Assembly: GCF_041886205.1 (NCBI RefSeq)
Contig: NZ_CP169029.1
Length of the DNA: 64,000 nt
Source: Escherichia coli
GTDB lineage: Bacteria; Pseudomonadota; Gammaproteobacteria; Enterobacterales; Enterobacteriaceae
Reading direction: 5' to 3' (one strand)
This document shows, piece by piece, positions 45,568 to 48,150 of the stretch; the stretch's first letter is position 1, and each line of letters starts with the position of its first letter. A model generated the notes under the pieces. That model did not search any database. It worked only from the letters and a program-made list of their open reading frames with translations, and was not told where the DNA came from. A program made the translations under genes and the position numbers.

Positions 45568-46857
45568 ATGACGCGCCGTGCTATCGGGGTGAGTGAAAGA
45601 CCGCCACTTTTACAGACAATCCCGCTTAGTTTGCAACATTTGTTCGCCATGTTTGGTGCAACCGTCCTGGTGCCCGTCTTATTTCATATTAACCCGGCGA
45701 CTGTACTGTTATTTAACGGTATTGGAACGCTGCTGTATCTCTTCATCTGTAAAGGGAAAATTCCGGCTTATCTTGGTTCCAGCTTTGCCTTTATTTCACC
45801 GGTATTGTTACTGTTGCCGTTAGGGTATGAAGTCGCGCTGGGCGGCTTTATTATGTGCGGCGTGCTGTTCTGCCTGGTTTCTTTTATCGTGAAGAAAGCG
45901 GGGACCGGCTGGCTGGACGTGCTGTTTCCACCTGCGGCAATGGGCGCAATCGTTGCCGTCATCGGTCTGGAGCTGGCGGGCGTAGCTGCCGGTATGGCGG
46001 GTTTACTCCCGGCTGAAGGGCAAACGCCAGACTCCAAAACCATCATCATCTCTATTACCACCCTGGCGGTCACGGTTTTAGGTTCCGTGCTGTTTCGTGG
46101 TTTCCTGGCAATTATCCCGATTTTAATTGGCGTGCTGGTGGGGTACGCGCTCTCTTTCGCAATGGGAATTGTCGATACCACGCCGATTATTAATGCTCAC
46201 TGGTTTGCGCTGCCAACCCTCTATACGCCGCGCTTCGAGTGGTTTGCCATTCTGACAATTCTGCCAGCGGCGTTAGTGGTTATTGCCGAACACGTAGGGC
46301 ACCTGGTAGTAACGGCTAATATCGTCAAAAAAGATCTGCTGCGCGATCCAGGTCTGCACCGTTCGATGTTTGCTAACGGCTTGTCGACCGTGATCTCCGG
46401 CTTCTTTGGCTCCACGCCAAATACCACTTACGGAGAAAACATTGGCGTGATGGCGATCACCCGTGTTTACAGTACCTGGGTTATCGGTGGGGCGGCGATT
46501 TTCGCTATCCTGCTTTCCTGCGTCGGTAAACTGGCTGCCGCTATCCAGATGATCCCATTGCCGGTGATGGGCGGCGTTTCGCTGCTGCTTTATGGTGTCA
46601 TCGGTGCTTCCGGTATTCGTGTTTTGATCGAATCGAAAGTGGATTACAACAAAGCACAGAACCTGATCCTGACTTCCGTGATTTTGATCATCGGCGTCAG
46701 TGGCGCGAAGGTAAACATCGGCGCGGCGGAGTTGAAAGGTATGGCGCTGGCGACCATCGTCGGTATCGGCTTAAGTTTGATCTTCAAACTGATCAGTGTG
46801 CTGCGCCCTGAAGAAGTGGTGCTGGACGCAGAAGACGCGGATATAACAGACAAATAA
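45568..46857 (+). CDS. uraA: uracil:proton symporter
   Basis: 429 aa from [36 protein letters not shown]2 family. Confidence 0.95.
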
Positions 46858-46951
46858 TGTACCGACCGGGCAGTGTTGCTGCCCGGTTCAAACATCATGG
46901 GATTCTGTGGTAAACTTCTCGCGATTTTGTGAAATCCTGGTTGAGGTATCT

Positions 46952-47653
46952 CTGAACACACCGGCACAGCTCTCTTTGCCACTTTATCTTCCTGACGACG
47001 AAACCTTTGCAAGTTTCTGGCCGGGGGATAACTCCTCTTTACTGGCTGCGCTGCAAAACGTGCTGCGTCAGGAACATAGCGGTTACATCTATCTCTGGGC
47101 ACGCGAAGGCGCGGGGCGCAGCCATCTGCTGCACGCGGCTTGCGCGGAATTGTCGCAGCGTGGCGATGCGGTGGGCTATGTCCCGCTGGATAAACGCACC
47201 TGGTTTGTTCCGGAAGTGCTCGACGGTATGGAGCATTTGTCGCTGGTCTGTATCGACAACATTGAGTGTATTGCAGGCGATGAGTTGTGGGAGATGGCGA
47301 TTTTCGATCTCTACAATCGAATTCTGGAATCGGGCAAAACACGATTGTTGATCACCGGCGATCGTCCACCGCGGCAGTTGAATCTGGGATTACCGGATCT
47401 CGCGTCGCGACTCGACTGGGGGCAGATCTACAAATTGCAGCCACTTTCTGATGAAGATAAGTTGCAGGCGCTACAGTTACGCGCGCGTTTGCGTGGTTTT
47501 GAACTGCCGGAAGATGTGGGGCGTTTCTTGCTGAAGCGGCTCGACAGAGAAATGCGCACGCTATTTATGACGTTGGATCAGTTGGATCGTGCGTCGATTA
47601 CCGCGCAACGTAAGCTGACCATTCCGTTTGTGAAAGAAATTCTGAAGTTGTAG
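46952..47653 (+). CDS. hda: DnaA-inactivating protein Hda (RIDA)
   Basis: 233 aa if initiated at the CTG at 46952 ([22 protein letters not shown]...), consistent with the reported CUG start; the ORF-track start at 46907 is an in-frame upstream start; AAA+ Walker motifs present. Confidence 0.8.
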
Positions 47654-47668
47654 ATAAGGTGTTTATTG

Positions 47669-47761
47669 TCGGATGCGGCGCGAACGCCTTATCCGAACTA
47701 CGCGAAGTTAATCCATAGTATTCGTAGGCCGGATAAGACGTGGCAAGCGTCGCATCCGGCA
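47669..47761. repeat. BIME: two inverted REP elements between hda and yfgD
   Basis: ggatgcggcgcgaacgccttatccgaact ... gtaggccggataagacgtggcaagcgtcgcatccggc. Confidence 0.7.
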
Positions 47762-47790
47762 ATGTGCTTCAACTAGCGATGGAGCACATC

Positions 47791-48150
47791 TTAACCTACG
47801 ATTTCCAGTACCTGCTCCGGTGGACGACCAATCCGCGCTTTGCCATTCGCGACCACAATCGGGCGCTCCATCAGCTTCGGATTATCCACCATTGCCTGAA
47901 TCAGCGCCTCTTCGCTAAGCGAACTGTCAGCCAGGTTCAGTTCTTTATAAAGATCCTCTTTCTGGCGCATCAATTCACGGGCGCTATTCATCCCCAGCAT
48001 TTTCAGCAAATCGCGCAGCGTTGCCGCATCGGCGGGTGTCTCAAGGTAGAGCACCACTTCTGGCTCCACGCCGTTTTCTTTCAGCAGGTTCAGCGTTTCC
48101 CGGCTCTTTGAACAGCGTGGGTTATGGTAGATTTTTACCTGTTTGGTCAT
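47791..48150 (-). CDS. yfgD: ArsC-family (Spx/ArsC-like) reductase YfgD
   Basis: 119 aa, MTKQVKIYHNPRCSKSRETLNLLK...; N-terminal Cys in the ArsC fold. Confidence 0.8.
   Translation of the reverse strand: MTKQVKIYHNPRCSKSRETLNLLKENGVEPEVVLYLETPADAATLRDLLKMLGMNSARELMRQKEDLYKELNLADSSLSEEALIQAMVDNPKLMERPIVVANGKARIGRPPEQVLEIVG

What the first reader, a model, noticed from the sequence alone, without database searches (positions are those of the whole stretch)
46907..46960. hda probably initiates at CUG (46952), not at the upstream ORF-track start
The window shows CTG-AAC-ACA-CCG (LNTPAQ) 15 codons into the ORF; Hda is reported to use a CUG initiation codon giving 233 aa. This is a known annotation trap.
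Basis: established knowledge. Interest (0 to 1): 0.3.

Follow-up and report, generated by a model that had tools for sequence, protein, structure and literature searches.

The report
Known CUG start of E. coli hda
The E. coli replication-control gene hda starts translation at an unusual CTG codon 15 codons inside the longest reading frame; this is correct, but it is already published and already built into current reference annotation, so it is ordinary.

Summary
The window carries E. coli uraA-hda-arsC-bepA. The longest ORF runs from GTG 46907 to 47653 (248 aa), and an in-frame CTG sits at 46952-46954 as codon 16, followed by AAC ACA CCG GCA CAG (NTPAQ).

- RefSeq annotates hda at exactly 46952..47653 (233 aa; WP_001307333.1, and NP_416991.2 in MG1655).
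- The residue numbering of the Hda-clamp crystal structure fits only the 233-aa frame.

My comparative analysis of 88 Enterobacterales loci agrees.
- The CTG is invariant in 88/88. All 30 other invariant leucines use at least 3 synonymous codons.
- GAGG sits exactly 5 nt upstream in 87/88.
- 46/88 loci have no in-frame ATG/GTG/TTG upstream of the CTG before a stop.
- The triplet matching GTG 46907 is in frame with the CTG in only 13/88. It is conserved as part of a TGnTAAACT motif that resembles an extended -10 promoter element, so it is probably promoter rather than coding. That last point is my inference; I found no transcription-start data.

Verdict: a real feature, already known, of low interest.

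The parts
46952..47653 (+). hda coding sequence as actually used: CTG start, 233 codons plus TAG stop (DnaA regulatory inactivator Hda)
   Evidence: RefSeq CDS coordinates map to exactly this interval. NCBIfam NF005982 Hda scores 476.6 bits, and Pfam finds Bac_DnaA plus Hda_lid. The sequence is identical to PDB 5X06 chain residues 21-253.
46952..46954 (+). CTG (CUG) initiation codon, decoded as fMet
   Evidence: Invariant in 88/88 Enterobacterales loci. It is the only one of 31 invariant Leu positions with no synonymous variation. Literature: PMC3531124.
46943..46947 (+). Shine-Dalgarno sequence GAGGT, with 5 nt between GAGG and the CTG
   Evidence: GAGGT is invariant in the alignment. The spacing is 5 nt in 87/88 loci. 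The duplex with the 16S 3' end is -6.9 kcal/mol, the best of all candidate starts.
46967..46984 (+). Codons for the beta-clamp-binding motif QLSLPL (residues 6-11 of the 233-aa protein)
   Evidence: Translation. The motif and its numbering are given in PMC5397184. In 125 distant homologues the motif begins a median of 4 residues from the N-terminus.
46907..46909 (+). GTG that opens the longest ORF (the old 248-aa annotation); not the functional start
   Evidence: The homologous triplet is in frame with the CTG in only 13/88 loci, and its distance to the CTG varies from 43 to 49 nt. It has no good SD (-4.0 kcal/mol). It lies inside the conserved -10-like motif.
46908..46916 (+). TGgTAAACT, an extended -10-like promoter motif (inferred hda promoter; transcription start predicted near 46922-46925)
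   Evidence: The TG and the TAnnnT pattern are invariant in 88/88 loci, and the hexamer is TAAACT in 75/88. The motif is also present in Proteus, where the upstream gene is different. No transcription-start data were found, so this is inference.
46864..46888 (+). Stable hairpin just after the uraA stop codon (likely uraA terminator or 3'-end stabiliser)
   Evidence: MFE -22.2 kcal/mol, z = -4.62, with 0 of 200 shuffles folding as well. The stem is kept across genera through paired changes (CCGGGCAG/CTGCCCGG versus CCGGGCGG/CCGCCCGG) in the alignment. It has no U-tract, so the terminator scan did not call it.

Best explanation
hda is translated from the CUG codon at 46952, giving a 233-aa protein that begins fMet-Asn-Thr-Pro-Ala-Gln. 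The beta-clamp-binding motif QLSLPL sits at residues 6-11. The ribosome is positioned by the GAGG(T) Shine-Dalgarno sequence 5 nt upstream, and initiator tRNA reads the near-cognate CUG inefficiently (about 1-2% of AUG in reporter assays), which keeps Hda scarce. The upstream GTG at 46907 that opens the 248-aa ORF is not a start codon. It is part of a conserved extended -10-like element (TGgTAAACT) and probably lies upstream of the hda transcription start, so the 15-codon 'extension' is promoter and leader that happens to be open and in frame in E. coli. Shown here: the sequence anatomy, the annotation, and the conservation statistics. Taken from the literature: the experimental proof of the CUG start. 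Inferred: the promoter role of the GTG-containing motif, and the reason for keeping a weak start.
For: Annotation: RefSeq places hda at positions equal to window 46952..47653 (233 aa) in three E. coli genomes and in NC_000913.3. [quoted passage not shown] 2008. Chodavarapu 2013 calls the GUG 'originally annotated'. Structure: 5X06 is a tag plus MNTPAQ..., and the functional residues named in PMC5397184 fit only the CTG-based numbering. Comparative: the CTG is invariant in 88/88 loci from 6 or more Enterobacterales families. Of 31 invariant Leu positions only this one is nucleotide-invariant, the rest using 3-6 codons, and only 3 of 163 invariant degenerate codons are nucleotide-invariant. The GAGG-5 nt-CTG arrangement holds in 87/88. 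46/88 loci have no in-frame ATG/GTG/TTG between the nearest upstream in-frame stop and the CTG, and the first downstream canonical start lies at residue 9 or later in 87/88, which would cut or remove the clamp motif. The homologue of GTG 46907 is in frame in only 13/88. Family architecture: in 125 representatives at 40-64% identity the clamp motif starts a median of 4 residues from the N-terminus; 88% have 10 or fewer residues before it and 1.6% have 20 or more. The CTG form has 5 and the GTG form 20. CUG efficiency: 1-2% of AUG with sfGFP and 0.02-3% with NanoLuc (bioRxiv 10.1101/063800).
Against: I could not read the primary experimental paper (Su'etsugu 2008 is not held), so the N-terminal protein evidence is second-hand. 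No transcription-start data near the predicted site were retrievable. The only listed start for hda is a 2-read site 620 nt upstream inside uraA (Kim 2012). The uraA-hda hairpin lacks a U-tract, so read-through transcripts carrying GTG 46907 may exist, and a minor 248-aa product in E. coli is not excluded. The consensus promoter scan found no sigma-70 site here, because the -35 region is poor. In seven non-Enterobacteriaceae loci a GTG two codons upstream, inside the SD (GAGGTG), could in principle also initiate.
Confidence: 0.95

Rival explanations
1. The original annotation is right: translation starts at GTG 46907 and Hda is a 248-aa protein; the CTG is an ordinary internal leucine codon.
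For: GTG is a canonical start and opens the longest ORF. The triplet is conserved as GTG/ATG/TTG in 88/88 loci. Automatic gene callers choose it (P0002, 3510 members). His-tagged constructs built on this start were reported usable.
Against: The homologous triplet is out of frame with hda in 75/88 related loci, and stops often intervene. It has no adequate SD (-4.0 against -6.9 kcal/mol). An internal Leu codon would not be nucleotide-invariant when all 30 other invariant Leu codons vary. RefSeq, EcoGene and the crystal-structure numbering all reject it. A 20-residue leader before the clamp motif is seen in only 1.6% of distant homologues.
Confidence: 0.01
2. Dual initiation in E. coli: CUG 46952 gives the main 233-aa Hda, but read-through transcripts from upp-uraA that carry GTG 46907 also yield a small amount of a 248-aa isoform.
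For: In E. coli, Escherichia sp. and E. albertii the GTG is in frame and open. The hairpin after uraA has no U-tract and may terminate inefficiently. Kim 2012 assigns hda a weak transcription start inside uraA.
Against: The SD for the GTG is poor. The extension is not conserved as coding sequence even within Escherichia: L005 has a 1-nt insertion that shifts the frame. No functional role is suggested by any homologue. The literature describes a single CUG-initiated product.
Confidence: 0.04
3. Translation starts at a downstream canonical codon, TTG 46976 (Leu9), giving a 225-aa protein, as some annotations of relatives assume.
For: 225-aa '[11 protein letters not shown]...' forms are annotated in Pantoea and Serratia symbiotica (P0064, P0105), and K. 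pneumoniae KPN_02819 is listed as 678 nt. TTG is the first downstream canonical in-frame triplet in 45/88 loci.
Against: This start would delete Q6-S8 of the QLSLPL clamp-binding motif on which Hda function depends. The codon is TTG in only 43 of 81 Enterobacteriaceae sequences and CTG or TTA in the rest. There is no SD (-1.7 kcal/mol). The crystallised, active protein contains residues 1-8.
Confidence: 0.005

Closest known systems
E. coli K-12 hda (b2496), CUG-initiated, 233 aa (Su'etsugu et al. 2008 J Biol Chem 283:36118; NP_416991.2; EcoGene 3.0)
   Same: It is the same gene. The DNA is 99.6-100% identical to complete E. coli genomes, the RefSeq protein is identical (WP_001307333.1), and the CTG, SD and clamp motif are the same.
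   Different: Nothing of substance. The window matches strain LHM10-1 at 100% and K-12 at 99.6% over 1.1 kb.
Other E. coli genes with near-cognate starts used to limit or regulate expression: infC (AUU, IF3-autoregulated) and the CTG start confirmed for yfjD (EcoGene 3.0)
   Same: A near-cognate start codon with a normal SD, giving low or regulated output. CUG, AUU, AUC and AUA all initiate at about 1-2% of AUG. yfjD is cited as the second CTG start in E. coli.
   Different: The IF3 autoregulation known for infC (my own knowledge) has not been shown for hda. For hda only the 'keeps the protein scarce' rationale has been proposed (Su'etsugu 2008 abstract, recalled from memory, not re-read).
Hda orthologues with solved structures: Shewanella amazonensis Hda (PDB 3BOS) and the Hda chain of PDB 3SC3
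   Same: AAA+ DnaA-domain-III-like fold, with an N-terminal QLSLP-type clamp motif close to the N-terminus (alignment...HPPLQLSLPVHLPDDETF).
   Different: About 50% identity. In the PDB chain the N-terminus lies several residues further upstream (chain residue 7 aligns with residue 14 of the 248-aa ORF). I did not inspect its DNA, so its start codon is unknown to me.

Membership tests
Hda, DnaA regulatory inactivator (NCBIfam NF005982 / TIGR03420) | Full-length match to the curated equivalog HMM above its cut-off | tested here: met
   NF005982 scores 476.6 bits (cut-off 268) and TIGR03420 scores 281.4 bits (cut-off 194.8). The NF005982 match begins at residue 14 of the 248-aa ORF, so the first 13 residues lie outside the family model.
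Hda, DnaA regulatory inactivator (NCBIfam NF005982 / TIGR03420) | AAA+ DnaA-type ATPase domain plus Hda lid domain | tested here: met
   Pfam PF00308 Bac_DnaA (residues 31-174 of the 248-aa ORF) and PF22688 Hda_lid (182-246).
Hda, DnaA regulatory inactivator (NCBIfam NF005982 / TIGR03420) | N-terminal beta-clamp-binding motif QL[SP]LPL and the Box VII arginine finger | tested here: met
   QLSLPL at residues 6-11 and R153 in CTG-based numbering, as described in PMC5397184.
Hda, DnaA regulatory inactivator (NCBIfam NF005982 / TIGR03420) | Promotes clamp-dependent DnaA-ATP hydrolysis (RIDA activity) | not testable with these tools
   This is a biochemical property. It is accepted from the literature for the identical E. 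coli protein.
Bacterial genes with a CUG (near-cognate) initiation codon | Near-cognate codon preceded by a Shine-Dalgarno sequence at functional spacing | tested here: met
   GAGGT at 46943-46947, 5 nt from GAGG to the CTG, duplex -6.9 kcal/mol. The spacing is conserved in 87/88 loci.
Bacterial genes with a CUG (near-cognate) initiation codon | No usable canonical start that could produce the conserved N-terminus | tested here: met
   46/88 orthologous loci have no in-frame ATG/GTG/TTG upstream before a stop. Downstream canonical starts fall within or after the essential clamp motif in 87/88. In E. coli itself an in-frame GTG does exist but is not conserved in frame (13/88).
Bacterial genes with a CUG (near-cognate) initiation codon | Codon conserved at the nucleotide level beyond what its amino-acid meaning requires | tested here: met
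   CTG in 88/88 loci. The other 30 invariant Leu positions each use 3-6 synonymous codons.
Bacterial genes with a CUG (near-cognate) initiation codon | Direct protein or ribosome evidence: N-terminal sequence of the native protein, start-codon mutagenesis, or initiation-arrest ribosome profiling | not testable with these tools
   Reported by Su'etsugu et al. 2008, as cited in EcoGene 3.0. The primary paper is not in the held library.

The most novel reading that the evidence does not exclude
The CUG may be more than a weak start. In 88 species across at least six Enterobacterales families it has never been replaced by UUG (one synonymous C-to-U step away), GUG or AUG. This would fit selection for a start codon whose use depends on initiation fidelity (IF3 level or ribosome state), as with the AUU of infC. 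Hda abundance, and through it the DnaA-ATP/ADP balance and replication-initiation timing, would then be tied to the cell's translational state. A related, apparently undescribed point is that the old 'start' GTG belongs to a conserved extended -10 promoter element.
Probability: 0.15. Interest if true: 0.45.

Novelty: already known. Interest (0 to 1): 0.1.

Why it matters
It matters mainly as an annotation check. Gene finders that allow only ATG/GTG/TTG mis-call hda as 248, 241, 235 or 225 aa. The extra N-terminal residues sit directly in front of the clamp-binding motif, so constructs built on the wrong start are not the native protein. Biologically, the weak CUG start is the accepted explanation for the very low Hda copy number that RIDA control of DnaA relies on. 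Nothing new follows for E. coli itself. The modest added value here is the quantitative evidence that the CUG, its SD and their spacing are fixed across Enterobacterales. The analysis also shows that the 235-aa 'VLLNTPAQ' form annotated in Yersinia, Erwinia, Hafnia, Serratia and others takes a GTG that lies inside the SD, and is therefore probably the same trap.

Tried and rejected
- **Primary paper.** I tried to read Su'etsugu 2008 by DOI and by PMC id. It is not held, so I relied on EcoGene 3.0.
- **Transcription start near 46922-46925.** Thomason 2015 is not held. Kim 2012 lists only a 2-read start 620 nt upstream inside uraA. The Cappable-seq, ROSE and Shigella M90T supplements contain no hda entry. 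Conway 2014 and the Rend-seq paper have no supplements held as text. The promoter reading therefore remains an inference.
- **Promoter and terminator scan.** The consensus scan found no promoter and did not call the uraA hairpin a terminator. The motif is an extended -10 with a weak -35 (TTCAAA at 18 nt gives 8/12 hexamer matches, below the tool's 9/12).
- **RNA structure.** Folding the leader and start region (46923-46990) showed nothing beyond chance (z = +0.51), so structure does not explain start choice. Rfam found no family in the leader.
- **Other in-frame near-cognate codons.** ATC 46934 and CTG 46937 were considered and rejected: no SD (about 0 kcal/mol) and no conservation.
- **Within-species variation.** This was uninformative, because the 91-nt start region is at least 99% identical in 5361 of 5426 records.
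- **Literature word searches.** Searches for hda plus CUG/CTG mostly returned HDAC or eukaryotic papers.

Full report
**What is in the sequence**

Window 46700-47800 is E. coli chromosome. It matches 5425 of 5426 complete E. coli genomes, is 100% identical to strain LHM10-1 and 99.6% identical to K-12, and carries uraA, hda, arsC and bepA. The ORF list gives 46907..47653 on the + strand, starting at GTG, 248 aa, beginning [26 protein letters not shown]. Reading the DNA, 46952-46954 is CTG, in frame, with 15 codons before it, and is followed by AAC ACA CCG GCA CAG.

**What curated sources say**

RefSeq annotates hda at locus positions 753-1454 in three unrelated E. coli genomes. These map to window 46952..47653 and encode WP_001307333.1. 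In NC_000913.3 the gene is 2618075..2618776 on the complement strand, 702 nt, NP_416991.2. That is the 233-aa CTG-initiated form.

[quoted passage not shown] 2008. A 2013 paper calls the GUG 'originally annotated'. I could not read the 2008 paper itself. From memory, its abstract says that hda uses CUG downstream of the annotated start and that this may hold Hda at roughly 100 molecules per cell.

The crystallised E. coli Hda (PDB 5X06) is a 20-residue tag followed by MNTPAQ.... The residues named in the structure paper (Q6-L11, E17, W23, S57, N103, R153, R177) coincide with the window's translation only when numbering starts at the CTG.

**Independent comparative test**

I fetched 80 species-level loci from Enterobacteriaceae at 92-100% protein identity. 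I added seven loci from other families: Yersinia, Erwinia, Hafnia, Dickeya, Proteus, Xenorhabdus and Serratia. With the window this makes 88 loci.

- The aligned codon is CTG in 88/88.
- Within the 81 Enterobacteriaceae sequences there are 31 positions where Leu is invariant. This is the only one with a single codon; the other 30 use 3-6 synonymous codons. Overall only 3 of 163 invariant degenerate positions are nucleotide-invariant. The codon is therefore constrained as a nucleotide triplet, not as a leucine.
- GAGGT is invariant upstream, with exactly 5 nt between GAGG and the CTG in 87/88.
- In 46/88 loci no in-frame ATG, GTG or TTG lies between the nearest upstream in-frame stop and the CTG. 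In 87/88 the first downstream canonical start is at residue 9 or later, inside or beyond the QLSLPL clamp-binding motif. In those species an intact Hda can only come from a non-canonical start.
- Among 125 distant homologues (40-64% identity) the clamp motif starts a median of 4 residues from the N-terminus. 88% have 10 or fewer residues before it and 1.6% have 20 or more. The CTG form has 5 and the GTG form 20.

**What the upstream GTG is**

The triplet homologous to GTG 46907 is conserved (79 GTG, 8 ATG, 1 TTG). However, its distance to the CTG ranges from 43 to 49 nt, most often 46, and it is in frame in only 13/88 loci. Even one Escherichia locus (L005) has a 1-nt insertion that shifts the frame.

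The conserved unit is NTGnTAnnnT, which is TGgTAAACT at 46908-46916. The TG, the TA and the final T are invariant, and the hexamer is TAAACT in 75/88. The motif persists in Proteus, where the upstream gene is not uraA. This is the pattern of an extended -10 promoter element. It would put the transcription start near 46922-46925 and leave GTG 46907 untranscribed from that promoter.

This step is inference. The consensus scan did not report a promoter here because the -35 region is weak, and I found no transcription-start data. Kim 2012 lists only a 2-read start inside uraA.

A stable, covarying hairpin at 46864-46888 follows uraA. It lacks a U-tract, so some read-through carrying the GTG is possible. 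That possibility is the basis of the minor dual-isoform rival.

**Mechanism**

The SD GAGG(T) pairs with the 16S 3' end at -6.9 kcal/mol, against -4.0 for the GTG and about 0 for ATC 46934 and CTG 46937. It places the CUG in the P site, and initiator tRNA reads this near-cognate codon poorly. Reporter measurements give CUG 1-2% of AUG with sfGFP and 0.02-3% with NanoLuc.

The start region has no unusual structure (z = +0.51) and no Rfam element. The result is a scarce protein whose clamp-binding motif sits at the extreme N-terminus.

The CUG was never exchanged for UUG, GUG or AUG in 88 species. This argues that the weak start is itself selected. Whether it also provides IF3-type regulation is untested.

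**Comparison with what is known, and verdict**

This is E. coli hda itself. It meets every sequence-level criterion of the Hda family and of a CUG-initiated gene, apart from the direct protein evidence, which exists only in the literature. The feature is already known and already in RefSeq, so interest is low.

One point worth passing on: the 235-aa 'VLLNTPAQ' annotation common in other Enterobacterales, on which the 235-position NCBIfam model NF005982 appears to be built, uses a GTG embedded in the SD (GAGGTG) two codons before the conserved CTG. It is probably the same trap in another form.

Noticed in passing
window 46908-46916 (and homologous positions in L004-L083, L085-L091): TGgTAAACT, an extended -10-like motif, is conserved in 88/88 Enterobacterales loci about 36-40 nt upstream of the hda CTG. 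It contains the GTG that opens the 248-aa ORF. It is probably the hda promoter, with a transcription start predicted near 46922-46925.
   Followed up: partly
L085-L091 positions 401-409 (Yersinia, Erwinia, Hafnia, Dickeya, Proteus, Xenorhabdus, Serratia): In these families the start region reads GAGGTGCTTCTG. Gene callers and many NCBI records take the GTG inside the SD as the start (235 aa, VLLNTPAQ...), although the CTG two codons downstream is conserved. NCBI holds both 233- and 235-aa forms for the same species (for example Hafnia paralvei), and NCBIfam NF005982 has 235 positions.
   Followed up: partly
window 46864-46888: An 11-bp hairpin lies immediately after the uraA stop codon (dG -22.2 kcal/mol, z = -4.6). 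It is conserved with paired changes across genera but has no U-tract, so it is either a weak terminator or a 3'-end stabiliser, and read-through into hda is possible.
   Followed up: partly
window 47665-47763: Two inverted REP-type palindromes (GCCGGATGCGGCG... / ...CGCATCCGGC) lie between the hda stop and arsC. They give sub-threshold Rfam matches to naRNA4, a REP-derived family (28-31 bits against a gathering score of 59.5).
   Followed up: partly
window 46897-46932: An out-of-frame ATG opens an 11-codon mini-ORF ([11 protein letters not shown]) spanning the -10-like motif and ending at TGA 46930-46932. The ATG is not conserved in other genera, so this is probably chance.
   Followed up: no
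hda codons 4 and 21 (window 46961-46963 CCG; 47012-47014 AGT): Apart from the CTG start, these are the only two degenerate codons that are nucleotide-invariant across the 81 Enterobacteriaceae sequences. CCG4 lies within the ribosome footprint of the start codon. AGT21 is unexplained.
   Followed up: no
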